The notes below the pieces were generated by a model. The model did no database searches and was not told where the DNA came from. It saw only the letters and a program-made list of their open reading frames with translations. A program made the position numbers and the translations under genes. From a virus (taxonomy: Duplodnaviria; Heunggongvirae; Uroviricota; Caudoviricetes), in IMG/VR virus record IMGVR_UViG_2563366856_000003, positions 1 through 35,867 of that record: a DNA stretch of 35,867 nucleotides; one strand, written 5' to 3'. Below, in pieces: positions 8,239 to 33,986 of this stretch (its first letter is position 1; every line of letters begins with the position of its first letter).

Positions 8239-8851
8239 CCGTTTAACTCCGTGGTTAATGGGTGCAACTATTTTCTGTTGTGCGAAGCATGAGACGCTAT
8301 TTGACCTGGCTGGGCAGTGGATGAAACAACAGATAAAGAAAAAGTGGGCAACTTGCCCGCCTCTATTTATTGCGGTATACCCAGCCATTCAGGATTTGTT
8401 GCTACTCATAATTACCTGCAAAGAAACAAAGAAAAGATGAAAATACAAGCTGTCTGGTACAAAGAAATCCATCAGACTTCCAACACCCCATACATGTGCC
8501 CCCACCACGGTATGCTGCTCCGCTTCCCTTTGCGGATATTTTCTATCCATCGATTTTCAGCCAGGATATGCACGTGCGCGATGAAGAATGTCACACTACT
8601 ATTGCCTTGTAAGCCCAGTTCCCGGTAAGAATAGCAACCAGCATCTGCGCTGCTACAGCACAAAGCGAGTGTATATTTGGGGGGAATATCCTTCATAAAC
8701 TGTTCGACGAAACCACGCTGTGGTTTCTCTTGTTATCAAACCGAGTGGCATTATCACTAGTTTTACTAAATTACCAACTTCACTGTGAATGATATGCATG
8801 ATAGAATCAGAAAATTAAATTATACAGATCTTAATCAATTCCGCGTTTTAT

Positions 8852-8877
8852 GCCCGTTGCTTCCACGGGCTTTTTTT
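8852..8877 (+). terminator. Intrinsic terminator (plus strand) inside the FI-H cargo island
   Basis: GCCCGT-TGCTTCC-ACGGGC hairpin followed by TTTTTTT. Confidence 0.5.
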
Positions 8878-8972
8878 AAAAAATCACCTAAAATAAATAA
8901 TTATATTCACTTTTATTCTAATACAGAATAGAATATGAAATCGTCAATTTGTACCATTAATTTTCAAATCTT

Positions 8973-9002
8973 CCCCGCCTTCGAGAGAATGCGGGGCTTT
9001 TT
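8973..9002 (+). terminator. Possible second intrinsic terminator (plus strand)
   Basis: CCCCGC / GCGGGG stem with a long 12-nt loop followed by CTTTTT; weaker than the first. Confidence 0.3.
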
Positions 9003-9150
9003 ACATGAGTACAACTTCACATTAACTATTTTTATACTTATAATTTGCTTTGCTTAAAAATGTTCAAAATGTACGCCAACATATTTAATTATGCTGATTT
9101 TATCACCAACAAAACTATCACCATGCAAACAATCCCTCGTGTTAGTTATA

Positions 9151-9166
9151 CTGCAATGCATTGCAG
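9151..9166. promoter_or_regulatory. 16-bp perfect palindrome upstream of the phase-variable ORF (candidate regulator binding site)
   Basis: CTGCAATGCATTGCAG is its own reverse complement; lies about 115 bp upstream of the ATG at 9281; a TATAAT hexamer is at 9212-9217. Confidence 0.35.
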
Positions 9167-9280
9167 CATGATGTGCTGATGACTTCATTAAATCATGTCA
9201 CAATGTTCAGATATAATGCTTCATGTTATGAGATAGCATTCTGAATATTCATAAACATTATTAACGTTAGAGGTTGCATA

Positions 9281-9515
<235 letters not shown>

Positions 9516-9544
<29 letters not shown>

Positions 9545-10649
9545 TTGCCCTTATTATACTATAAAAGGCAATACTATAAAAGGCAACACTAAAAAAGAAA
9601 ACATTTCATCTTCTGCTGTTTTAACAACAGCCCTGCATACTTCTCTTCTAAAAATCACAACGGTAATTAATGAAATTAATTCTATTTATCCCTTTGATGT
9701 CTCAGTTGTTATTCCGGTTCACAACCGAGAAACCCTTATTCTCGAATGCATTAAATCTTTAAACAATCAGACTATAGATAAAAATTGTTTTGAAGTTATT
9801 TTCATTGATGACTGTTCCACTGACAGGAGCATTGCCGCCATTGAATATAACATTTCGAGAGAAATAAATTATCGTATTATCCGTAGAGCAGTTGGTTCAG
9901 GGAATGCATCAGCGCCGCGAAATGAGGGAATAAAATCCGCAAAAGGTCGCTATGTGTTTTTCTTAGACTCTGATGATTCCATTCACTCTGACTTACTGTC
10001 CGATGGTATTCAGATGGCTTATAAAAACAATAGTGACATTGTATATTTCAAGCAGGTTTCCTCTACAGGGAGAGGGGTTCCTGTACGCCCATTTAAGGCA
10101 GACACGAATAAAGCAGATATTATAAAAAACCATCTTTTTAGATCATTAAAAATCTTCAAGTTCTTTAAAAGAGAGTTGCTAATCAATAACAACATCTTAT
10201 TTAACCCATCAATTTCAGTCTATGAGGATATGCTTTTTTCTTGCCAGAGCCTAACTGTAGCTAATACGATATCTATACTGGCAAGAAAGGGCTACTACTC
10301 TCTGAATCGCCATGAAGAACCACATCTATCTAAAACATCTTTCTCCATTAAACAAAGAGCCTTGGTATTACAAACAGGTTTGATTTATATCTTATCAAGC
10401 AATAAAAATGAAGCAGAAATAGTAAAAATGTTTAATGCATGGCTGGTTATTTGCGTTGAGCACTTGGCATCCATATTATCCAAAAAAAGTTTAACAACTA
10501 ATGAGAAGTCTCACGTTTTTAACTTGATACATAAATCACTCTTACCATATACAGGGCTTGTAAATGAGTCCCAAATATATCCCGCACAAAGAGAGCTTGT
10601 CAGTTGCTTAATCTGTGGAGATTATTCTTCTTTTTGCGAAAAAATATAA
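9516..10649 (+). CDS. Family 2 (GT-A fold) glycosyltransferase, probable surface-polysaccharide-modifying lysogenic-conversion gene
   Basis: 377-aa ORF with VVIPVHNRE...IFIDDCSTDRS and DSDD (DXD) motifs typical of GT2; the annotated start is a GTG immediately after the repeat with no usable RBS and there is no in-frame ATG upstream of the domain; AT-rich. Confidence 0.8.
9558..9602. repeat. 15-bp tandem repeat (about 2.5 copies) in the glycosyltransferase 5' region
   Basis: ACTATAAAAGGCAAT / ACTATAAAAGGCAAC / ACTAAAAAAGAAAAC, encoding TIKGN-TIKGN-TKKEN. Confidence 0.8.
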
Positions 10650-10688
10650 AAACACTTAACTACAGATACTCCTAACTTTGTATCTGAC

Positions 10689-10718
10689 GCCCCTCACCCT
10701 AAATTAAGGGTGAGGGGC
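10689..10718. other. Perfect 11-bp GC-rich hairpin between the convergent glycosyltransferase and tail-fibre genes
   Basis: GCCCCTCACCC-TAAATTA-GGGTGAGGGGC followed by A8 on plus strand; not a canonical terminator for either strand (U-run precedes the hairpin on the minus strand). Confidence 0.6.
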
Positions 10719-10860
10719 AAAAAAAATAATTATTTGATGTTATATTTATATGCCATCACATCTTTTAACTCCAGTTGTTACGGGGAGGACAGTGACTCGT
10801 ATCAACTAAAGTTTGATCTGTAGATAACACTATTTTAAGCAGATACTCATTAAGGCTTGT

Positions 10861-13719
10861 TTATTCTGAAGTCTCCAACTTCATCAAACGATGATTTAAG
10901 TCAACAAAGCGTTCCATTAACAAATCCACCTGGCTGACAACAGCACATAGACACCACCAGAGAAGCTCCTCTTTCCGGAAGCGATAACGGCTTCCTGCTT
11001 CGGTTGCAGGGCGAACAAGAACCCTTTCCGCCTGTCGGGTAAGCACACGAGTTGTCCCGCTCAACAGCTCCCCTTCATCCGAATAAATCGCTGGCTGAAC
11101 CGGAATATCTTCATACTCTTCCGGTATATCTTCGTACTGTGCCTCCTCCGCTTCCCACGAATCCAGACAAAATGCGCTGTATTTCCGCCAGTCCAGACCG
11201 TGTTTCTCCATCACCGCTATCGCGGCCTGGACTGTCGGCCCGGCGTGCAGACGCGCGTCCTCGCCCTCCTCCTCAATTCTCTGTAACCAGCGCCACACGC
11301 CCGGAAGCCGTGCTATTTCTGCAAATGCCGCGTTTTCGGCTGCCGTCGCATCGCGCGGTGTATCCTTTAACGTCGCATCCGACACAACGGTCGGCGAGTT
11401 GCAGAGATACACGCTCCGGAACGCTTTGTTGGGCGCACCCAGGTCGCTGGTATTGTTAACCGATGGCCGGAATGCACCGTTAATATCTGTATCCATCTGC
11501 ATGAATGCAGTGCCGTCACTACGGGCTGCAATTACATAAGCGTCAGCAGAATCGTCATAAATACCCAGATTCCCGGCTGTTGATACCTGGAAAGCTCCCG
11601 CCTTCAGCGTGGTGCTGATGGCCATGCGCTTCTGGGTTTCGTCATCCGATTTAATATTCACGCCCTGCAGGTATGCCACATTCCAGCGATTTGGCGATGA
11701 CCCCAGATTCATTGCCTTGTCCTGGTCGGGATGAAATGCCGGCGAGACCGGACTCAATAATACAGACCAGGTCTCACTGCCATCGGTACAATAAAGCCTT
11801 GTGCGCCCCGCCGACTGAGTATCGTTCATTGAGTAAAGGTTAATCCCGCCACCGCTCAACAAATCCACGTCAGCGCGTATTTCCAGACAATCGTGCACGG
11901 TGTTCAGTCGGTGTTTCCACTGAACGAAGCGGCCTGTGTATTCTCCGGTTCGGAACGCATCCCCGTACAAACGAAAAACAGCAGCAGAAGTGTCTGTATC
12001 CGGAGCCTCCTTTCTGACCTCAAATAACGGGCGATGCGAGCGCAGATTCTGCTCATAGGCTGCCACCTGGAAGTCTTCATTGGGTGACAGGGCAATATTT
12101 ACAGCATTGGGACTCAGAAAAAGGCTAGCATGGCTGTCAGGAAACGCCACGCCGGAGTCCACCAGATAGCCTGTGCCGTCGTAAGCCTCCACGGAAACCA
12201 CAGCTTTGCTGCGTTTTGTCGCCACGCCACACGTATAAGACTTCGTGGCATCATATTTCGTTGCAGCCGCCGTTCCATATGCTGTAGGCGTCCAGTAAGA
12301 TGGATTCACCGGGGAACGGCCAGAAAAATTTGTTGCACGTGCTGCAAAGTATGCCCCCTCAAAAGAAACCACATCGGCTGTCTGACACCAGAAATCCATA
12401 TCGAGCAGATACAGTTTTCCGTTATGAAGAGCCAGCCCTTCGGCTTCCTGCAAAACGGGATACCCCAGCTCTGCATTCCCCAGCATTTTCTGGCGGCCAT
12501 ACCTGGCACGAACGCCATCCACATTGAACTGTCTGACAACTTCGCCCGTTGACAGGTTATATACAACAATGCGGTGAGTCAGAAATACGCCTGTATAACC
12601 GTAATAAGCAAACAGATAATGACCATCGCTGGCCATCCCCTGAAATGCCTGCGACACCATTGACTGGGTGGACAGATAAATCCGGTGTTTAAACGTCAGA
12701 GAAGCGCGATCGAAAACATAAACTGTGCGGCGGTCATCCCTGTTGTAATGAAGATGGACGGCTTCATTACTTGACTGAACAATCAACAGGCTTCCGTCTA
12801 CCGACAATGCCACCGTTATAATTTCATCCCCGGTAAAAAAGTCAGAGGTGAAAATCTCCGTACGGGTGACATCTGTCAGACTGGTGTCAGCCCCATTCCA
12901 GTTGATGATATTCACACCCTTGCCGTCAGCGGTCGGGGTATACAGCATCACGCGACCGTCTTCACATACAGCCCCGATACTCTGGTGACCAATATCAGCG
13001 AAAACGGGAGAAAACGAAATGACCGTCGGGTTTTCGTTTTCTCCGTCAGGGTTAAATGTCGTTTCAACAATCCTTACGCCACCCGATACAGGCTGATGCA
13101 GAAACATTCTGGTTCCCTGCGGCGTATCACAGATACAGAACCCCTGACTCATATTATCCGCACCGTCAAAAATCCCGGCGTAGTCAATATCGTGGACAAC
13201 TTTATGCTGAAGAACCACATCATCAATGACAGTACGATGAAAACTGGATATGGCTTTATCGACGTAATCCTGCGTCGCCATCACCGTGCTGGCATCAATA
13301 CTCAGCTCAACAGACGCCACGTTACTGACAATAATAACCATGCGGCAGGTCTGCGCACGCCCGGAGCCTTCAGCCAGTTCAGGCTTATAGCTTTCTGCCA
13401 TGTTAGCGACCGCAATCAGTGTTCCGGCATCGTCATACAGACCAAGTTCACGCATCCAGAAGCCGCCCACTTCTGGCGGTACAACCAGTTCAGCCACGAT
13501 ATAGTTTTTATTCTTGTTATCCACGCTGACTTTATTCAGGGCGTGACGCCAGACCTCATGCACCAGTTTCGTCTGACCAGCATCCGGCACCGGCAATTTG
13601 CCATTACCGTCACCCACGGCCATTGCAGACAGGGTTACTTTTTTCCCGCCGGGGACAGTGGCGGCTGCCAGCTTTGCGGCTCCGGCAGTAGTGATAACGG
13701 TTTTAAATTTCGTGCTCAT
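10861..13719 (-). CDS. H: Tail fibre protein: gpH-like N-terminus, non-P2 central/receptor-binding region, candidate C-terminal intramolecular chaperone domain
   Basis: 952-aa ORF; first about 150 aa match P2 gpH (MSTKFKTVITTAGAAKLAAAT...GGFWMRELGLYDDAGTLIAVANMAESYKP), the rest is unrelated; C-terminal region contains an S-D-x-x-x-K motif (SDATLKD); no gpG-like assembly gene follows. Confidence 0.85.
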   Translation of the reverse strand: MSTKFKTVITTAGAAKLAAATVPGGKKVTLSAMAVGDGNGKLPVPDAGQTKLVHEVWRHALNKVSVDNKNKNYIVAELVVPPEVGGFWMRELGLYDDAGTLIAVANMAESYKPELAEGSGRAQTCRMVIIVSNVASVELSIDASTVMATQDYVDKAISSFHRTVIDDVVLQHKVVHDIDYAGIFDGADNMSQGFCICDTPQGTRMFLHQPVSGGVRIVETTFNPDGENENPTVISFSPVFADIGHQSIGAVCEDGRVMLYTPTADGKGVNIINWNGADTSLTDVTRTEIFTSDFFTGDEIITVALSVDGSLLIVQSSNEAVHLHYNRDDRRTVYVFDRASLTFKHRIYLSTQSMVSQAFQGMASDGHYLFAYYGYTGVFLTHRIVVYNLSTGEVVRQFNVDGVRARYGRQKMLGNAELGYPVLQEAEGLALHNGKLYLLDMDFWCQTADVVSFEGAYFAARATNFSGRSPVNPSYWTPTAYGTAAATKYDATKSYTCGVATKRSKAVVSVEAYDGTGYLVDSGVAFPDSHASLFLSPNAVNIALSPNEDFQVAAYEQNLRSHRPLFEVRKEAPDTDTSAAVFRLYGDAFRTGEYTGRFVQWKHRLNTVHDCLEIRADVDLLSGGGINLYSMNDTQSAGRTRLYCTDGSETWSVLLSPVSPAFHPDQDKAMNLGSSPNRWNVAYLQGVNIKSDDETQKRMAISTTLKAGAFQVSTAGNLGIYDDSADAYVIAARSDGTAFMQMDTDINGAFRPSVNNTSDLGAPNKAFRSVYLCNSPTVVSDATLKDTPRDATAAENAAFAEIARLPGVWRWLQRIEEEGEDARLHAGPTVQAAIAVMEKHGLDWRKYSAFCLDSWEAEEAQYEDIPEEYEDIPVQPAIYSDEGELLSGTTRVLTRQAERVLVRPATEAGSRYRFRKEELLWWCLCAVVSQVDLLMERFVDLNHRLMKLETSE

Positions 13720-26293: not shown

Positions 26294-26434
26294 ACACCCC
26301 GTCATCACGCCCTCACACGCTCACCACCGCACAAAACACCCCGCAGACACACCAACGCCCCGGCGCACAATCTAAACGCCATCACGACGCGCTGAGACGC
26401 TAAAAAATAAAATCAGCACCACCGCCAGCGCGCA

Positions 26435-26453
26435 GTGCTTTCCCCGCCTCGCC
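26435..26453. other. cos: cos site (19-nt cohesive end of P2-type phages)
   Basis: GTGCTTTCCCCGCCTCGCC is the reverse complement of the recalled P2 cohesive end GGCGAGGCGGGGAAAGCAC; located after Q as in P2. Confidence 0.7.
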
Positions 26454-26595
26454 CGCCCGCTTCGTGGGGCGGTTTTAATGCAGATGCATTATGAGCCCTG
26501 AGCTGCGCCTAACGTGACACAGTTCACGAGAAAAATAGGAATTATCAAATGCAATTTCATGCAGATAGAGAGGCATGAGATCCCGAAGCATATAT

Positions 26596-27948
26596 TCAAC
26601 CCTCTGCCGAAATATTTCTTTGGAGAAATGCTCTAATTTTTTGCCTGAAAGCCTCACATTCATCAGGCTTTAACCTCTCAAGGTATTCAAAAACCCTAGT
26701 TTCATCCCAGCCGTTGTTATAGGTTTTCACTACCCCTCGATAAACTTGCTTATCAAGTTTATCGTTACCTCTAGTTGTAACTCTCGGGATCGATTCATCT
26801 TGGCCGTATGCTTGATAGAAATCCTTCTCAACGCTTTGGAAAGGTATGCATAAAATATTTTCACCTCGAGCATGCCTTTGACCTAATTGATCTCCGTCTA
26901 ACACTGAGATCACATTCTGTTGAGTCGTGAGAAAGCTCTCTCTCTCATTACGACGCATTAAATCAATGACATTAGTTCCTCCACCAACATATATTATTTT
27001 ATATTCGTAGAAGTAATCATTCCCAGGAGCATTAATTATATATTCTAAGAAATTTTGCAGAACTTCATCTTCAGTAAGAATGTACTTATCCCATCCTTTA
27101 AATCCAAAAAGCGTACTTTTTATATAATTATATGATCGATTTGTAATTGTAGTTCCAGCATCACCTTCGCACATATAGTACAATTCATCATCATTCAGCG
27201 TTTGCATTAAAGCAAGTGAATGTGTTGTGAATACAATATTCACCGAGTGTCTCTGACAATATTTCCTTAGCACTGCTATAAGATGGACTTGCGCCGAAGA
27301 GTCTAGTGATATATCTATCTCATCTATGACAATGAATTTTCTTTTGAGCTCAATCATTCTAAATAAATTCAAAATAAAATACTCACCCGAGCTAAAGTAA
27401 TCCTCCCTTATGTATGTTCCGTTCTCATTCAATCTGAAATAGAAAATTTCATTTTTTACAGAAAATGCTTTAAGATTATTGTAAGAAGAAGACTGATATA
27501 CCTCATTGAGTATATTTATCAAATCCTCGGGAACGCTATAGCTTTCAAACGCAATACTTTTTCTAAGTTCAGTATCAATTTTACTAAGTGTTGGGAAGTT
27601 ATTGAACCTCATTCCATGAGGAATGGGCAACTCGACATAAAGATTGGATTTTATATCTGCTGGAATTATTTGCTTAGTATCTATTACCTTCAAATTCTCA
27701 TCATAGACATATACTATATCTTGATCATTAATATTATATACTATACTACTGTCAGGATTGAATATATATCTAGAAGATGTCTTTATGAATGTATCTGCTG
27801 ATTGTAAATTTTTAATTGCTTTGATTAGCGTTGTCTTTCCAGCACCGTTCTTTCCTACAATGCAAGTCAGTTTATTTTCAGAAAGATCAATAGCAAATGA
27901 CATATGTTCAACATGCTGGATTTTCGAGATCTCAATGTTTATTTTCAT
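26596..27948 (-). CDS. OLD-like ABC-type ATPase with C-terminal Toprim-like region (candidate effector of RT-associated defence system)
   Basis: 450-aa ORF: Walker A GKNGAGKTT, signature-like SSGEYF, Walker B FIVIDEID, H-loop TTHS, then TEDE ... VLDGDQ resembling Toprim Glu and DxD; ATG one base after the RT stop; AT-rich. Confidence 0.8.
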   Translation of the reverse strand: MKINIEISKIQHVEHMSFAIDLSENKLTCIVGKNGAGKTTLIKAIKNLQSADTFIKTSSRYIFNPDSSIVYNINDQDIVYVYDENLKVIDTKQIIPADIKSNLYVELPIPHGMRFNNFPTLSKIDTELRKSIAFESYSVPEDLINILNEVYQSSSYNNLKAFSVKNEIFYFRLNENGTYIREDYFSSGEYFILNLFRMIELKRKFIVIDEIDISLDSSAQVHLIAVLRKYCQRHSVNIVFTTHSLALMQTLNDDELYYMCEGDAGTTITNRSYNYIKSTLFGFKGWDKYILTEDEVLQNFLEYIINAPGNDYFYEYKIIYVGGGTNVIDLMRRNERESFLTTQQNVISVLDGDQLGQRHARGENILCIPFQSVEKDFYQAYGQDESIPRVTTRGNDKLDKQVYRGVVKTYNNGWDETRVFEYLERLKPDECEAFRQKIRAFLQRNISAEG

Positions 27949-27949
27949 T

Positions 27950-28939
27950 TTAATTTACATTCTTGTAAAAAAGCATATCGACAATCGTATTTCCGTATTT
28001 TCTCTTTAGCTTATCGAGATAACTCTTATCAATTGTGTTTATATGATTCAAAAGACCAGAAACTGTATTAATGCCCTTTTCCAAGATCTCACTATCATTC
28101 AATCCGCTAGTTTTAACCTTAGGATCTTTTATTATAGAATCTATAAATTTATCTTTATCCGTTACATAAAAATGAATCAAATGCTCAAGCTTTCTTTTTA
28201 TTTTAATATCAACAGAGACTATCTGAGACGGTAAAATAACCATCCCCAGCAGCTTAATCTTACTGCCTTTTTTAATCAATTTAGTTTTTGCTGAGTTTAG
28301 TTTGAAATGTCCCTTCCCAAACTCACCCAGCAGGTCACTTACTACAGAATGAATATTCTCAAAGCCCTCATCATTTTCAGAGGAAATAATAATATCATCT
28401 GAATAGCGTGTGAATATATATTCATGGTTAATACAATATTGCTGCATCTCAACATCAAAGTCATATAAACATGCATTGCTGAAAGCTGGTGATGTCGGGA
28501 ACCCTACAGGCAACGAATTATCGATAATAATATAATCTAAAATTTTATCCAAGTGTATATTTAAATCGGAAATGGGAACGTTCGATAAGTTATCAACTAA
28601 AACTGATCGTGCATATTCACGAGTTATCGATGGGAAAAAGCTTTTAATATCAGTATTGAAGAATATCTTACTACAGGCGTGAAGTTTTACTGCATCATAA
28701 GTGCTGCTTCCTTTTCTATACGAAAACACAACATCCTTATTTACTTTCAAGTATGAAAGAACAAATTCATTTATGAATTTGTGATACTCTTTTAGTTTAG
28801 AAGTGGGCTCAGCAATTAACCTTTCATCAAAGGTTATAAATTTAGTTTGTTGAAATGGTTCAAACGAAAGAAAGTTTTGAAAGGAATCTTTTTCGAAGAA
28901 TGCAATATTGAAGGCTTTTTCGAGACTAAGGGGTTTCAT
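27950..28939 (-). CDS. Reverse transcriptase, retron-type size
   Basis: 329-aa ORF with RT motifs NTDIKSFFPSI (motif A-like), LPVGFPTSPAFSNACL (motif B'), YSDD (YxDD catalytic motif C); AT-rich; sits at the P2 old/tin position. Confidence 0.85.
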   Translation of the reverse strand: MKPLSLEKAFNIAFFEKDSFQNFLSFEPFQQTKFITFDERLIAEPTSKLKEYHKFINEFVLSYLKVNKDVVFSYRKGSSTYDAVKLHACSKIFFNTDIKSFFPSITREYARSVLVDNLSNVPISDLNIHLDKILDYIIIDNSLPVGFPTSPAFSNACLYDFDVEMQQYCINHEYIFTRYSDDIIISSENDEGFENIHSVVSDLLGEFGKGHFKLNSAKTKLIKKGSKIKLLGMVILPSQIVSVDIKIKRKLEHLIHFYVTDKDKFIDSIIKDPKVKTSGLNDSEILEKGINTVSGLLNHINTIDKSYLDKLKRKYGNTIVDMLFYKNVN

Positions 28940-29265
28940 CGTTGGCTGAGCTTTTGTTTTTTGAGTTGAATGGATTCTAAGATGAATGCTTTAACTCTCA
29001 GTCTTTCCTCACCCCAGACACCCTCCCTTCGCAGACTTTACTTCTTGTACATACCTTCTCTCGAAAGAGAAGGCAGTACAAGAGCAACACTATATAAAGG
29101 CCTGTAGAGGCCAACATTTATGACTGGAGATGCTCCTAGTCGTTGGCATAAAAACACTTTAAACCAGATTATGAGCATTTACAACATTTCAAGCCGTCGA
29201 ACGCAGCCCCAATCAGAAAAGAACTCACACGGCCATCATAACATCATGATTTAGATGGATATAAA
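28940..29265 (-). ncRNA. Candidate retron non-coding RNA (msr-msd) region upstream of the RT
   Basis: Non-coding 326 bp between A stop and RT start on the RT strand with several stable stem-loops: composite 15-bp stem 29044-29082 with 4-nt loop (UUCG on the RT strand), hairpins at 29099-29112 and 29110-29147; a1/a2 terminal repeats not identified. Confidence 0.45.
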
Positions 29266-31536
29266 TCACCCTTCATGCTTCACCCACTCGTCCGCTATCG
29301 GGTATACAAATCTTTTTTCGCCATAAACCACTATTCCGCCACGAGCCAGCGCCTGAAGTTCCCACCGCTGCGGCGTGATACCCTGCTGCGCCAGTTCGAA
29401 GCGGATGCGCGGAATCTGAGCCCTCTCGGCTTTTGTCATTCGCCCTGATGGTGCTATCTGATGCGGTTTTAATGGCTCATCGCTTCTTTGCTGTCGATTT
29501 TGCTGCGGCGCGCCGTGTTTTAATGCACTCCTGAGCACCGTCACAACTTCGGGGTCATCCCATGCAATAACCCCATCATCGACAAGATTTAGCACCGCTG
29601 CCGCATGCTCAGACGGCGTAGGTGTCATAACTGGATCGCCACCGTCGGCAAGCTTTCCACAGTTATTGACAGGACTCCGAGGCGCGGCGATGCCGCTTTT
29701 TAAAGTCAAAGGCTCAACGACCGGAACTTTCGGCACAATGCGCCAGTCCGTCGTTCTGGTGATATGAATATGACGCGCGCCGAGATGCGGCGCGTAAATG
29801 CCGACCACTCTCTCGACTTCTTCCTCGTACTCGTTAACGTCATCCGACGGGCTACGGGCAACCCTGACAGTCTGACAATCGCGCGGGACATTTGCCCCAC
29901 CCTGCGCGCTGATATACAACGCAAAATCACCACTGTCTGCGGCAGCACGAGCAGCCTCGACGCGTTCGTCAAACTCATCAGCAATACTGACGCCGCGAGG
30001 CAATTTGCGTAGTTCACGGTAAGCCCCCATTGTCGGCAGTCCAACCGTTTTAAATTGCGGGATGCGCCACGTTGACGCCCATGCGGTAACAGCCGCGGCA
30101 GTATCTTTCAGCGGCCTGCCGGTATCGTTATCGAGCTGCCCATCCAGTGCATAGCCGTCGATATTTTTTGAGATATATTTCGCGATATACCCCGCAGCAC
30201 CGCCCCGGTTAAGATGTTTTGCCTGAAAACGGTTTCGCGCGGCTCCTCTTTCGTCGCCATCCTCTTTGAGCGCATAGCGACGCATGATTTCGATAATCTG
30301 GTTACGCTGGCGTGGATTACAAAAAAGCATCATATGCCAGTGCGGCGTTCCGTCGTGGTGTGGCTCGACGACACGCAAACCGTAGACCTGTAAATCATTA
30401 TCCTTGAATGCCGTGCGCATCAGGCTCCAGATACGGCAGAGATAACGCTGCGCATCCTTTGGATTAAATGCCTCATCGTTCCAACCGTGATTAAGCTGCA
30501 CGGTTTTACTTTCGCCTTTTCCGACCTGACGTGTCGGGTGATACTTTGACGGCGCGGTCAGCGTGATAAACATCCCCACATCACCCTCTGCAGCGGCGTA
30601 ACGCTCAATACCGGCAATGGTGTTCATCAGCTCCATCCGGCGAATTTCAGGATTAGAAATACTGCCCATCACCTTACTGATAAGGTCGATGCGCTCGCCG
30701 GTTTCCCTGTTTTCAAGGTCACACGATTTAAGAAACTCCAGATTTGCCTGGCGGCGCGCACGCACATCACGAATGGCATGTTTACTGGCATAAGGTGAAC
30801 GGTCTTTATTGACCTCCCCGACAGCAATCAGTAACGCTTCATGCCAGCGCATACGCTGGCCTTTAAGCTGATGAGTCCACCACTCATCGTTAAACAGACG
30901 GGCAATGGCAGAATATGCCTGCCTCGTGGTCATCTGCCCTTTACGGTATTTTTTCCAGTAGAGAGGGGAAATATTGAAAGCACGTGCAGCGCCAGCAACA
31001 TGACCATAGAGGTGAGCCTGCGCCTCATCCGTAAACAGCGATTCTTTTTCGCCATGCGCATCCACCCAGGCATCGCTGAGTTCCTCATACATCATGAAAA
31101 GCTGCGATGAGATACGGGCAGCAAACTTTTTCAGCTCCTTGTCATTCATTCCCGGCAGGCGCGCATAGTGGTCACGCTCTGCCAGAAACAGTAACGACGC
31201 GTCGGTGTTCATTTCATGGCGCTGATTCACACGCTCAATGCGCGGCCATAAACGACGCTGAAAAGTGGATGTGAGGAAATAAAACCCGTGTACCGGGCTT
31301 TTATTGCGCCGGATGTAGTCATAGCGTGAAGTAAACAGCGAGCGCAAAAAGTAAGGCAGGCGGTTAATCGTGGATAAAACACCTTGCACCTGACGCATCT
31401 CGTCACGTGTAAGGGGTCTTTCGCGCCCGACGGCCTCGCGTGGCGCGTTCCATGCATAAGCACCGGTAAACGCCTTACCGGTGCCTGCAGCAAATGCTGA
31501 AGGAGGGACAAAACGCCCGGAGGCTTTAACGGCCAT
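29266..31536 (-). CDS. A: Replication initiation protein A (rolling-circle nickase)
   Basis: Matches P2 gpA from MAVKASGRFVPPSAFAAGTGK...; start set to the internal ATG at 31534-31536 corresponding to the P2 start (the ORF-track start 31578 adds 14 aa); C-terminal about 100 aa diverge from P2. Confidence 0.9.
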   Translation of the reverse strand: MAVKASGRFVPPSAFAAGTGKAFTGAYAWNAPREAVGRERPLTRDEMRQVQGVLSTINRLPYFLRSLFTSRYDYIRRNKSPVHGFYFLTSTFQRRLWPRIERVNQRHEMNTDASLLFLAERDHYARLPGMNDKELKKFAARISSQLFMMYEELSDAWVDAHGEKESLFTDEAQAHLYGHVAGAARAFNISPLYWKKYRKGQMTTRQAYSAIARLFNDEWWTHQLKGQRMRWHEALLIAVGEVNKDRSPYASKHAIRDVRARRQANLEFLKSCDLENRETGERIDLISKVMGSISNPEIRRMELMNTIAGIERYAAAEGDVGMFITLTAPSKYHPTRQVGKGESKTVQLNHGWNDEAFNPKDAQRYLCRIWSLMRTAFKDNDLQVYGLRVVEPHHDGTPHWHMMLFCNPRQRNQIIEIMRRYALKEDGDERGAARNRFQAKHLNRGGAAGYIAKYISKNIDGYALDGQLDNDTGRPLKDTAAAVTAWASTWRIPQFKTVGLPTMGAYRELRKLPRGVSIADEFDERVEAARAAADSGDFALYISAQGGANVPRDCQTVRVARSPSDDVNEYEEEVERVVGIYAPHLGARHIHITRTTDWRIVPKVPVVEPLTLKSGIAAPRSPVNNCGKLADGGDPVMTPTPSEHAAAVLNLVDDGVIAWDDPEVVTVLRSALKHGAPQQNRQQRSDEPLKPHQIAPSGRMTKAERAQIPRIRFELAQQGITPQRWELQALARGGIVVYGEKRFVYPIADEWVKHEG
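29666..29685 (-). other. ori: Probable origin of replication (A-protein nick site) inside gene A
   Basis: Minus strand reads GCGCCTCGGAGTCCTGTCAA, matching the recalled P2 ori nick-site sequence located within the A coding region. Confidence 0.5.
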
Positions 31537-33303: not shown

Positions 33304-33565
33304 CGAGACCTAACCACATCAACCAGCCGTCACGAATCTCTTTAGGACGGCTTTCATAAGCCAGTTTTAGTCCGTTATTCCATGCCGGAAGGTATACCCA
33401 ATATTCACCAGCACGCCCCGATACTGACTGAGGGTCAGTAATCTCAATAACTGGTAATTTCCCTTTCTCAATCATGCCCCTTACAGCTCTTGGAGTTTTA
33501 CCAATGAGTTTTGCAAACTCCTGATAAGGCACGGCATCAGTCACGCTTACAAGCTGTCTATTCAT
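33290..33565 (-). CDS. cox: Cox (excisionase and transcriptional regulator)
   Basis: 91-aa ORF matching P2 Cox length; first gene of the early operon, divergent from C. Confidence 0.9.
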   Translation of the reverse strand: MNRQLVSVTDAVPYQEFAKLIGKTPRAVRGMIEKGKLPVIEITDPQSVSGRAGEYWVYLPAWNNGLKLAYESRPKEIRDGWLMWLGLGEPR

Positions 33566-33686
33566 CTGCTACGATTCTCCCTTAGTGCTTCTAATGGCTC
33601 CTAATGGCTAATTATTGCCTAAAAGGATAACTCCAGAAGCACAACATTTCACACTATCAGCAAGAAATTACGCAATCGGAGTAATT
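33566..33686. promoter_or_regulatory. Immunity switch region (divergent Pe/Pc promoters with candidate C operators)
   Basis: Intergenic region between divergent cox and C; direct repeats CTAATGGCT at 33591-33599 and 33601-33609 (10-bp phasing) resemble P2-type direct-repeat operators. Confidence 0.45.
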
Positions 33687-33986
33687 ATGTCAATAGACGT
33701 TTCGGAGAAGTTGAAGCTAATCCGTGAATCTGAAAGGTTAAACCGTAAAGAATTCAGTGAATTAACTGGTGTAGCCTACAGCTCACTTTCGAGCTATGAG
33801 AGCCGGTCAAAAAACGCTGGAGTTGAAGCCATAATGAAGGTCTTACAACATCCTAGATTTACTAAATATACTTTGTGGTTCATGACTGATCAGGTAGCTC
33901 CAGAAGCCGGGCAAATTGCGCCCGCTCTCGCACACTTTGGGCAAAACGAAACAACGTCGCCCCACTCCGGTCAAAAGACTGGTTAA
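33687..33986 (+). CDS. C: Immunity repressor C
   Basis: 99-aa product from ATG at 33687 (MSIDVSEKLKLIRESERLNRKEF...); C-terminus matches P2 C (...FTKYTLWFMT...QIAPALAHFGQNETTSPHSGQKTG); HTH in N-terminus. Confidence 0.9.
   Translation: MSIDVSEKLKLIRESERLNRKEFSELTGVAYSSLSSYESRSKNAGVEAIMKVLQHPRFTKYTLWFMTDQVAPEAGQIAPALAHFGQNETTSPHSGQKTG

What the first reader, a model, noticed from the sequence alone, without database searches (positions are those of the whole stretch)
29666..29685. Conserved replication origin motif inside gene A despite a divergent A C-terminus
The minus strand within A reads GCGCCTCGGAGTCCTGTCAA, which I recall as the P2 ori nick region, while the C-terminal roughly 100 residues of A differ from P2. 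Together with the replaced old/tin region this suggests recombination breakpoints near the 3' end of A.
Basis: partly seen in the sequence, partly recalled or inferred. Interest (0 to 1): 0.25.

Follow-up and report, generated by a model that had tools for sequence, protein, structure and literature searches.

The report
P2 replication origin bordering swapped cassette
The 20-base motif is the known nick site where phage P2-type replication starts, and it marks the left edge of a swappable block (the end of the replication gene plus a retron defence system) whose right edge is the packaging site cos.

Summary
GCGCCTCGGAGTCCTGTCAA occurs once, on the minus strand at 29666-29685, inside gene A (31536..29266, 756 aa) of an integrated P2-like prophage (window 1507-35222). 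It is identical to the stretch of the P2 record that carries the annotated ori nick (29892). All 82 P2-like loci examined have it, as do prophages of other genera whose A genes are only about 78-80% identical.

The divergent C-terminus is real. Residues 1-629 are 99.0% identical to P2 A, and residues 630-751 are 64.8% identical. Synonymous divergence rises from 0.10 to 1.37 at the 3' edge of the ori island, so the cause is recombination, not drift in place.

The block from just after ori to cos carries A's C-terminal domain and a type I-B retron in place of orf91/tin/old. It is nearly identical in several E. coli prophages whose flanks differ by 1-4%. It is also about 98% identical in one backbone that is 21-32% diverged on both sides.

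Two further results: a GC-rich hairpin 5' of the nick is kept by compensatory changes, and the ori lies in DNA that encodes a low-confidence interdomain linker.

The origin and the hotspot are known. The ori-as-border detail is a modest addition, and its mechanism is unresolved.

The parts
29666..29685 (-). The 20-mer of the finding, the core of the P2-type ori nick site (GCGCCTCG|GAGTCCTGTCAA)
   Evidence: Exact and unique. Identical to P2 29885-29904, which includes the annotated nick at 29892. Present in 82 of 82 P2-like loci and in Scandinavium, Enterobacter, Pseudescherichia and Yersinia prophages.
29677..29678 (-). Inferred nick position, placed by homology with P2 29892. Whether the cut is 5' or 3' of this G was not verified.
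   Evidence: P2 record feature 'nick site at ori'. PMC8537503 the experimentally determined origin. No nicking was tested here.
29651..29708 (-). Invariant ori island, about -23 to +34 from the first base of the motif
   Evidence: Nucleotide diversity is 0.001 here, against about 0.03 upstream and 0.13 just downstream, among 79 unique P2-like sequences. It holds the longest perfect-identity run (37-46 bp) between P2 A and the A genes that are about 78-80% identical.
29684..29696 (-). GC-rich hairpin GCGGC-atc-GCCGC. Its 3' arm ends 6 nt 5' of the nick.
   Evidence: A perfect stem of at least 5 bp sits at this position in 67 of 82 unique ori regions, against 4.8% of composition shuffles and 13% of synonymous recodings. 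There are 20 different stems and 52 different encoded peptides.
29266..31536 (-). Gene A, the replication initiator endonuclease (756 aa)
   Evidence: Pfam Phage_GPA, E 6.8e-124. 93% identical to P2 A overall. HUH motif H399-W-H401 (window 30334-30342) and Y450/Y454 in YIAKY (window 30175-30189).
29626..29751 (-). Codes for A residues 596-637, a predicted flexible interdomain linker that contains the ori-encoded peptide 618-629
   Evidence: AlphaFold2 with 42 sequences gives pLDDT below 50 and no secondary structure for these residues. They are flanked by better-predicted domains.
29566..29650 (-). First divergent segment of A (+35 to +119), of unknown source
   Evidence: 68% identical to P2, 78% to L222, 86% to Scandinavium L083.
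29269..29565 (-). Rest of A's C-terminal domain (+120 to the end), co-inherited with the retron
   Evidence: Positions +120 to +400 are 98% identical to L222 (E. coli A15), whose backbone is only 75% identical upstream. They are 70% identical to P2. Only L003 among 80 IMG/VR P2-like loci carries the same allele.
28940..29265 (-). Spacer between A and the RT gene, a candidate retron msr-msd non-coding RNA with a long hairpin at 29043-29083
   Evidence: Inverted repeats. RNA fold z-score -2.56. No Rfam match. Not verified.
27950..28939 (-). Retron reverse transcriptase, type I-B
   Evidence: PADLOC RT_I-B, E 4.5e-110. Pfam RVT_1.
26596..27948 (-). Retron-associated ATPase-Toprim effector, type I-B
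   Evidence: PADLOC ATPase-Toprim_I-B, E 3.4e-179, full length.
26435..26482 (-). cosR-proximal sequence, the right edge of the exchanged block
   Evidence: 95.8% identical to the last 48 nt of P2. For the 20 cargo-sharing pairs still homologous past cos, 19 low-divergence blocks end within -87 to +69 nt of the cos end. The estimate for WIN-L003 is +237, but its first post-cos mismatches are at about +33 and +40.

Best explanation
The motif is the rolling-circle replication origin of a P2-type prophage. Its own product, gpA, is an HUH endonuclease with two active-site tyrosines. By homology with P2, gpA nicks the A-coding strand within CTCG|GAG, stays linked to the 5' end, and the 3'-OH primes leading-strand synthesis. 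These steps are inferred from P2 and were not tested here. The site consists of a short GC-rich hairpin, a spacer of 3-5 nt, and the box GGAGTYCTGTCAATAACTGT. It lies in DNA that encodes a flexible linker between the body of gpA and a C-terminal domain of about 115 residues. Because the site is held constant at the DNA level, it is the longest stretch of perfect identity between otherwise diverged A genes. It therefore serves as the left homologous-recombination anchor of the known gpA-gpQ defence hotspot, and the conserved cos region serves as the right anchor. The window's A gene is a chimera. It is P2-type up to +34, a patch of unknown source covers +35 to +119, and from +120 on a C-terminal domain arrived together with a type I-B retron that replaces orf91/tin/old.
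For: Identity and position of the site.
Initiator motifs.
Conservation: exact 20-mer in 82 of 82 P2-like loci. Exact in prophages whose A genes are 78-80% identical. The core is kept in 7 of 8 distant Peduoviridae found by protein similarity, with A proteins 30-57% identical.
Hairpin: stem of at least 5 bp in 82% of sequences, against 4.8% of shuffles and 13% of synonymous recodings.
Linker.
Recombination:
- Identity step at +35.
- dS 0.10 rising to 1.37.
- At least 4-5 independent alleles begin to diverge at +29 to +35.
- The ori island is the longest identity run, 37-46 bp against 32 bp or less elsewhere in A.
- The block from +52 to cos is 0.0-0.8% diverged in P2-type backbones that differ by 1-4% on both sides.
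- In backbone L222 the block is 2.0% (cargo) to 5.2% (+52 to +420) diverged, while both flanks are 20-32% diverged.
- Among 39 cargo-sharing pairs the left edges lie between -174 and +534, mostly within 175 nt of the motif, and none lies further upstream.
- Right edges cluster at cos.
Against: No nicking or replication was tested, and the strand and exact phosphodiester bond come from the P2 annotation only. I could not obtain the primary paper. The exact donor of the window's allele was not found. The best match for the +35 to +119 patch is 86%. The 80 IMG/VR loci are the best matches to the full-length A query, so they are biased towards P2-type N-terminal parts. Pairs within a cargo group are not independent. 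In alignment A1 the core positions are invariant partly by construction, because loci L098 onward were retrieved with that pattern; the hairpin result is not affected. The fixed-register pair count was weak (58% paired against 53% in shuffles). Many cargo swaps have breakpoints at the very 3' end of A (+336 to +433) and not at ori, so ori is the outer limit of the variable zone and not the only junction.
Confidence: 0.75

Rival explanations
1. The ori is an active recombination hotspot, not merely a passive homology anchor. The gpA nick (or the hairpin/cruciform), the displaced strand that starts at the nick, and the terminase cut at cos create DNA ends that start exchange. On this view the segment between the two programmed breaks is the one preferentially swapped.
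For: Several cargo groups have a C-terminal allele that stays P2-like up to about +400, yet their low-divergence blocks still end near ori (-174 to +108) and not next to the cargo. Right edges lie within about 90 nt of cos. A defective prophage found in 69 of 5426 E. coli genomes has a deletion that joins orf80 to A at +31 through an AAAG microhomology, the same point as the allele junctions. Diversity also jumps just after ori in the independent Fels-2/PSP3-type lineage. Rousset et al. 2022 speculate that cos ends are recombination substrates and leave the second crossover unexplained.
Against: All of these patterns also fit a recombination-cold, diverged C-terminal region next to a recombination-hot, 97-99% identical upstream region, with repeated exchanges eroding the linked flanks. 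The deletion is a single inherited event. The crossover cannot be placed inside the invariant island, so sequence cannot show that it sits at the nick. Replication direction and the nicked strand were not verified here.
Confidence: 0.3
2. The divergent C-terminus evolved in place through relaxed or diversifying selection on a poorly constrained domain, without recombination.
For: The segment includes a predicted disordered linker. The domain matches no Pfam family or solved fold. dN/dS is higher than in the rest of A, 0.165 against 0.047.
Against: Synonymous divergence jumps 13-fold at a sharp point. The allele is 98% identical to that of a backbone that is 25% diverged elsewhere, and is 0.0-0.8% diverged among backbones that differ by 1-4% in the flanks. 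The E. coli alleles are 59-72% identical to each other downstream of ori while 97-99% identical upstream.
Confidence: 0.03
3. The 20-mer is conserved only because it encodes a conserved peptide (APRSPVN), not because the DNA is a functional site.
For: The peptide AxPRSPVNNCG is nearly invariant in the protein alignment.
Against: Third codon positions are invariant across 79 unique P2-like sequences, while neighbouring codons vary. The nucleotide core persists where the peptide changes (PRSSVNNC, PWTRGNNC). The upstream hairpin is kept by paired changes that alter the amino acids, for example G-I-A to A-S-G. The nick was mapped experimentally in P2 at this sequence, according to the record and to PMC8537503.
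Confidence: 0.03

Closest known systems
Bacteriophage P2 ori / gene A system (Liu & Haggard-Ljungquist 1993, 1994; Odegrip & Haggard-Ljungquist 2001, cited in PMC3986222 and PMC8537503)
   Same: Identical 20-mer, and an identical island of about 58 nt, at the homologous codon of a gpA that is 99% identical over residues 1-629. It has the same HUH and YxxxY motifs and the same gene order (cox-B-orf80-83-A).
   Different: The 127 C-terminal residues of gpA are a different allele (64.8% identity), and orf91/tin/old are replaced by a retron. I found no description of the hairpin in the papers I could read. My recollection that the original papers reported no secondary structure is unverified.
P2 gpA-gpQ (old/tin, 'TO region') defence hotspot (Rousset et al. 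2022, PMC9122126; iLund4u preprint 10.1101/2024.10.15.618418)
   Same: Variable cargo lies between A and cos/Q. The cargo here is a defence system, and cargo lengths among related loci range from 866 to 3859 nt.
   Different: Those papers define the hotspot at gene level, between gpA and gpQ, and name only cos as a possible recombination substrate. Here the variable zone reaches into A, up to the 3' edge of ori, and A's C-terminal domain travels with the cargo.
Type I-B retrons (RT plus ATPase-Toprim, the class named RT_I-B and ATPase-Toprim_I-B in PADLOC)
   Same: Both proteins match the type I-B HMMs over their full length. The gene order is RT then ATPase-Toprim, with an upstream structured spacer.
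   Different: The ncRNA is not confirmed: no Rfam match, only a long hairpin. Equating it with a named retron such as Ec83 would rest on memory and was not tested.
Relaxase/HUH origins with an inverted repeat a few nt 5' of nic (such as oriT of R388 or F; from my own knowledge, not tested here)
   Same: A hairpin lies immediately 5' of the cleavage site, followed by a conserved single-stranded recognition box. The enzyme is an HUH endonuclease that uses tyrosine.
   Different: gpA is a Rep-type two-tyrosine initiator of phage replication, not a conjugative relaxase. The stem is only 5-7 bp. Binding of gpA to the hairpin is not known.
Origin-proximal recombination breakpoints in rolling-circle ssDNA viruses such as geminiviruses (from my own knowledge)
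   Same: Recombination junctions cluster at the Rep nick site of the origin.
   Different: P2 is a dsDNA tailed phage. A causal role for the nick is not shown here.

Membership tests
P2-type (Peduoviridae) ori within gene A | Sequence match to the experimentally mapped P2 nick region | tested here: met
   20 of 20 identity, and identity across about -23 to +34.
P2-type (Peduoviridae) ori within gene A | Located inside the initiator gene at the homologous position | tested here: met
   Codon 618 of A, in the same frame and position as in P2.
P2-type (Peduoviridae) ori within gene A | Cognate initiator with an HUH motif and two tyrosines (YxxxY) | tested here: met
   Phage_GPA E 6.8e-124; HWH at 399-401; Y450 and Y454.
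P2-type (Peduoviridae) ori within gene A | Conserved at the DNA level across relatives beyond what coding requires | tested here: met
P2-type (Peduoviridae) ori within gene A | Site-specific nicking by gpA and initiation of replication at this site | not testable with these tools
   Needs an in vitro cleavage assay or in vivo origin mapping.
P2 gpA-gpQ defence hotspot | Variable cargo between A and cos/Q in otherwise similar phages | tested here: met
P2 gpA-gpQ defence hotspot | Cargo encodes an anti-phage system | tested here: inconclusive
   The HMM assignment to retron I-B is strong. Defence activity was not tested.
Retron type I-B | Retron-clade RT with an adjacent ATPase-Toprim effector | tested here: met
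   RT_I-B E 4.5e-110; ATPase-Toprim_I-B E 3.4e-179.
Retron type I-B | msr-msd non-coding RNA next to the RT gene, and msDNA production | tested here: inconclusive
   The 326-nt spacer has a long hairpin and a fold z-score of -2.56. No Rfam match. msDNA cannot be tested here.
Hairpin-plus-nic HUH origin architecture | Stem-loop adjacent to the nick, kept by compensatory changes | tested here: met
   82% against 4.8% and 13% in the two controls, with 20 stem variants. The fixed-register count was weak because the stem register shifts between lineages.
Hairpin-plus-nic HUH origin architecture | The initiator binds the hairpin, or the hairpin is extruded in supercoiled DNA | not testable with these tools
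   Needs footprinting or a structure.

The most novel reading that the evidence does not exclude
In P2-like phages the two sites of programmed DNA breakage delimit and actively drive the exchange of defence cassettes. These sites are the gpA nick at ori (with its conserved hairpin) and the terminase cut at cos. The unit of exchange includes gpA's own C-terminal domain, which explains why that domain is hypervariable. [quoted passage not shown] 2022 left open.
Probability: 0.25. Interest if true: 0.6.

Novelty: new member of a known kind. Interest (0 to 1): 0.35.

Why it matters
The origin and the hotspot are textbook or recently published biology, so the finding as stated is largely a correct recognition of known features. 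The analysis adds three points. First, the variable zone of the P2 defence hotspot does not stop at the end of gene A. It reaches the 3' edge of the replication origin, so a whole domain of the essential initiator is exchanged along with the defence cargo, even between backbones about 25% diverged. Second, the origin has a conserved hairpin just 5' of the nick. Third, the origin sits in linker-coding DNA, which helps explain why chimeras joined there remain functional. Together these give a concrete, testable proposal for how defence cassettes move between P2-like phages: conserved cis-acting sites serve as recombination anchors and may also start the exchange.

Tried and rejected
- The primary paper on the nick site (NAR 22:5204, PMC332061) is not held. 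The nick position therefore rests on the P2 record and on citing papers.
- Rfam found nothing in 26300-29900 at E up to 1.
- Folding 101 nt around ori as ssDNA gave no significant overall structure on either strand (z +1.05 and +0.89). Only the small local hairpin appears.
- A fixed-register pair count on alignment A1 was weak, because stem position and length shift between lineages. I replaced it with a per-sequence hairpin search using shuffle and synonymous-recoding controls.
- The search for the donor of the window's C-terminal allele in one genome per species found only relatives 78-84% identical at the protein level. A near-identical copy in a divergent backbone turned up only among the E. 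coli genomes (L222).
- A Foldseek search of the gpA 480-756 model against the PDB gave no match better than E 1.8. The function of the C-terminal domain remains unknown.
- No other IMG/VR P2-like locus apart from L003 carries this retron.
- Rejected readings: divergence in place and conservation of the motif for coding reasons alone.
- Literature searches for an earlier description of ori as the hotspot border found none. Nilsson et al. 2004 (Mol Biol Evol 21:1) is the paper most likely to bear on this, and I did not look it up (known only from the reference list).
Full report
**1. The observation**

The minus strand of window 29666-29685 reads GCGCCTCGGAGTCCTGTCAA. It is the only match in the window even when 3 mismatches are allowed, and none was found in 100 shuffles. 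It lies in frame, starting at codon 618, in a 756-codon ORF (31536..29266, minus strand). That ORF is gene A: Pfam Phage_GPA E 6.8e-124, and 93% identical to P2 gpA. The window holds a complete integrated P2-like prophage at 1507-35222, in reverse orientation. It is collinear with P2 except for three segments: 8363-13257, 26483-29283 and 33544-33856.

**2. Is it the P2 ori?**

The P2 RefSeq record carries the same 20-mer at 29885-29904 and annotates 'nick site at ori' at 29892. That is the 8th base, a G, equivalent to window 29678. The fiAA91-ss record annotates rep_origin over the same bases. [quoted passage not shown] It also says the nick sequence is conserved among Peduovirinae. PMC3986222 reports a near-identical ori in Vibrio phage PV94. 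I could not obtain the primary mapping paper. The window's gpA has the HUH motif (H399-W-H401) and the tyrosine pair Y450/Y454.

**3. Conservation and anatomy of the site**

- All 82 P2-like loci examined carry the exact 20-mer. These are P2, fiAA91-ss and 80 IMG/VR contigs found by protein similarity.
- Among 79 unique sequences, nucleotide diversity is about 0.03 upstream of the motif and 0.001 from the motif to +29. It is 0.13 from +30, then 0.06-0.24 to the end of A, and above 0.3 beyond. The invariant island runs from about -23 to +34.
- Four prophages of Scandinavium, Enterobacter and Pseudescherichia have A genes only about 78-80% identical, yet they carry the exact 20-mer. A fifth (Enterobacter, L087) differs at one base. 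The Yersinia phage with 57% protein identity also carries it exactly.
- The core CCTCGGAGTYCTGTCAATAACTGT persists in Klebsiella, 186-like and Vibrio phages whose gpA is 33-37% identical. Fels-2-type phages have a variant. Mannheimia phage 535AP1 showed no match.
- In the 82-sequence alignment A1, the invariance of the core positions is partly by construction, because loci L098 onward were retrieved with that pattern.

The region upstream of the pattern is not constrained by retrieval. There, 67 of 82 unique sequences have a perfect GC-rich hairpin of at least 5 bp (loop 3-6 nt) whose 3' arm ends 2-8 nt before GGA. The same is true of 4.8% of composition-preserving shuffles and 13% of synonymous-codon recodings. 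There are 20 different stems and 52 different encoded heptapeptides. Examples are GCGGC/GCCGC, GCGCC/GGCGC, GGACGGC/GCCGTCC and AGCAGC/GCTGCT. The complementarity is therefore maintained at the DNA level. In the window the hairpin is at 29684-29696, 6 nt 5' of the inferred nick. Folding 101 nt as ssDNA shows no larger structure. A fixed-register pair count was weak because the stem register shifts between lineages.

**4. The divergent C-terminus is a recombination product**

- Residues 1-629 differ from P2 at 6 positions. Residues 630-751 differ at 43 positions, which is 64.8% identity.
- Nucleotide identity is about 97% up to window 29677 and about 72% from there to 29284. After that, homology to P2 ends.
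- Nei-Gojobori dS is 0.10 for codons 1-628 and 1.37 for codons 629-751. dN/dS is 0.047 and 0.165 respectively. The domain is therefore still under purifying selection, but it has a much older common ancestor with P2's.
- Downstream of ori, six E. coli alleles are only 59-72% identical to each other, while upstream they are 97-99% identical.
- At least four or five independent alleles begin to diverge from the consensus at +29 to +35: the window/L003 allele, L026, L033, L069, and partly L006/L009/L011. Most other loci diverge at +336 to +433, at the very end of A. No breakpoint was detected upstream of the motif in the -600 to 0 stretch analysed. The 80 loci were pre-selected for similarity to the full-length query, so this point carries a bias.

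**5. The unit that moved**

The cargo is a type I-B retron: RT_I-B E 4.5e-110 and ATPase-Toprim_I-B E 3.4e-179. Ten of 5426 complete E. coli genomes carry the same block from A's 3' end through the retron, at 97% identity or more.

| Comparison with the window | Upstream of about -40 | Between ori and cos | Beyond cos |
|---|---|---|---|
| L003 and four genomes with P2-type backbones | 1-4% diverged | 0.0-0.8% diverged (+52 to cos) | 1-5% diverged |
| L222, E. coli A15, NZ_CP028759 | 21-32% diverged | perfect identity -3 to +34; 24% mismatched +35 to +119; about 2% diverged +120 to about +3200 | 20-28% diverged |

The window's A is therefore a three-part mosaic:

- Up to +34 it is P2-type.
- From +35 to +119 it is a patch of unknown source, with the best match at 86% to a Scandinavium prophage.
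- From +120 on, it is a C-terminal domain co-inherited with the retron.

The right edge coincides with cos. Thirty-two cargo-sharing pairs were informative there. In 12 of them the sequence past cos is unrelated. For 19 of the other 20, the low-divergence block ends within -87 to +69 nt of the cos end.

**6. Why the junction is at ori**

Between P2 A and the 78-80% identical A genes, the longest perfect-identity run in the whole gene is the ori island. It is 37-46 bp long, ending at +35 to +41, and the next-longest runs are 20-32 bp. That makes it the best substrate for homologous recombination between diverged phages, and it places the visible breakpoint at the island's 3' edge, as observed.

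AlphaFold2 (42 sequences, mean pLDDT 67) predicts residues 596-637 as a low-confidence, unstructured segment. The ori-encoded residues 618-629 lie within it. It sits between two better-predicted parts, and the C-terminal part (638-750) reaches pLDDT 74-92. A junction there therefore swaps a whole domain.

Among 39 informative pairs of loci that share a cargo, the left edge of the low-divergence block lies between -174 and +534. By my grouping of those pairs there are about 26 distinct edges, of which about 22 are within 175 nt of the motif. None lies between -1700 and -175.

**7. Passive anchor or active hotspot?**

Some observations hint at an active role for the nick:

- Several cargo groups have a C-terminal allele that is consensus-like up to about +400, yet their blocks still end near ori.
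- A defective prophage present in 69 E. coli genomes has a deletion that joins orf80 to A at +31 through an AAAG microhomology.
- The Fels-2/PSP3-type lineage also shows a jump in diversity just after ori.

All of these can also be explained without the nick. The C-terminal region is diverged and so recombines poorly, the upstream region is nearly identical and recombines freely, and repeated exchanges erode the linked flanks. The deletion is a single inherited event. Sequence alone cannot separate the two models. I give the active model about 0.25-0.3.

**8. Relation to what is known**

The origin, gpA and the gpA-gpQ hotspot with its defence cargo are known (PMC9122126; preprint 10.1101/2024.10.15.618418). 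Those papers define the hotspot between genes. [quoted passage not shown] They do not mention ori or the gpA C-terminal domain.

I found no earlier description of the hairpin or of ori as the hotspot border in the texts I could search. Nilsson et al. 2004, which I did not look up, may bear on this.

**9. Verdict**

The feature is a new member of a known kind. Interest is modest (0.35), and it rests on the ori-to-cos cassette model and the conserved hairpin, both of which can be tested.

Noticed in passing
window 26596-29265: The cargo that replaces orf91/tin/old is a type I-B retron (RT 27950-28939, ATPase-Toprim 26596-27948). The 326-nt upstream spacer has a long hairpin (29043-29083) and is likely the msr-msd RNA. 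No Rfam family matches it.
   Followed up: partly
L222 (E. coli A15, NZ_CP028759, 3051184-3059482): A P2-like prophage whose backbone is only about 75% identical to P2 and to the window carries the same retron plus gpA C-terminal domain, at about 98% identity. The block is bounded by ori and cos, which shows cassette transfer between diverged lineages.
   Followed up: yes
L096 3990-4000 (E. coli GYX208DH4E-2, NZ_CP104851), and 69 of 5426 E. coli genomes: A defective P2-like prophage next to cpxP has a deletion from orf80 to +31 after the first base of the ori motif, joined at an AAAG microhomology. The deletion removes ori and most of A. Its endpoint coincides with the allele junctions.
   Followed up: partly
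window 8363-13257: There is no P2 homology across the region that corresponds to P2 13195-17524 (the end of tail-fibre gene H, G, and the Z/fun hotspot). This is a second replaced segment and I did not examine it.
   Followed up: no
window 33544-33856: There is no P2 homology in the region that corresponds to the C repressor and early-operator region, which implies a different immunity type from P2.
   Followed up: no
window 1507 and 35222: P2 homology ends at positions that correspond to the attP core (P2 24355-24382) on both sides. The window therefore holds a whole prophage with about 1.5 kb and 0.65 kb of host flank.
   Followed up: partly
L091, L092, L102 and others (Fels-2/PSP3-type loci): A second ori type, GGGCGcttgCGCCC-CTT-GGACTCGTGGCAATAACTGT, has the same hairpin, spacer and box layout. 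It also shows a rise in diversity immediately 3' of the box.
   Followed up: partly
window 29666-29685 and relatives: The invariant AATAAC inside the box recalls, from my memory only, the AATAAC in the conserved 30-nt phiX174-family origin, which is nicked by a related two-tyrosine Rep. I did not check this.
   Followed up: no
proteins P0009, P0016, P0018, P0059, P0091: Several JGI entries for gpA fragments carry the source name 'large subunit ribosomal protein L30', which looks like a mis-annotation.
   Followed up: no
L094 (Mannheimia phage 535AP1): This gpA homologue (38% identity over its catalytic part) has no recognisable P2-type ori box within 6 mismatches. Its origin may be different or located elsewhere.
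   Followed up: no
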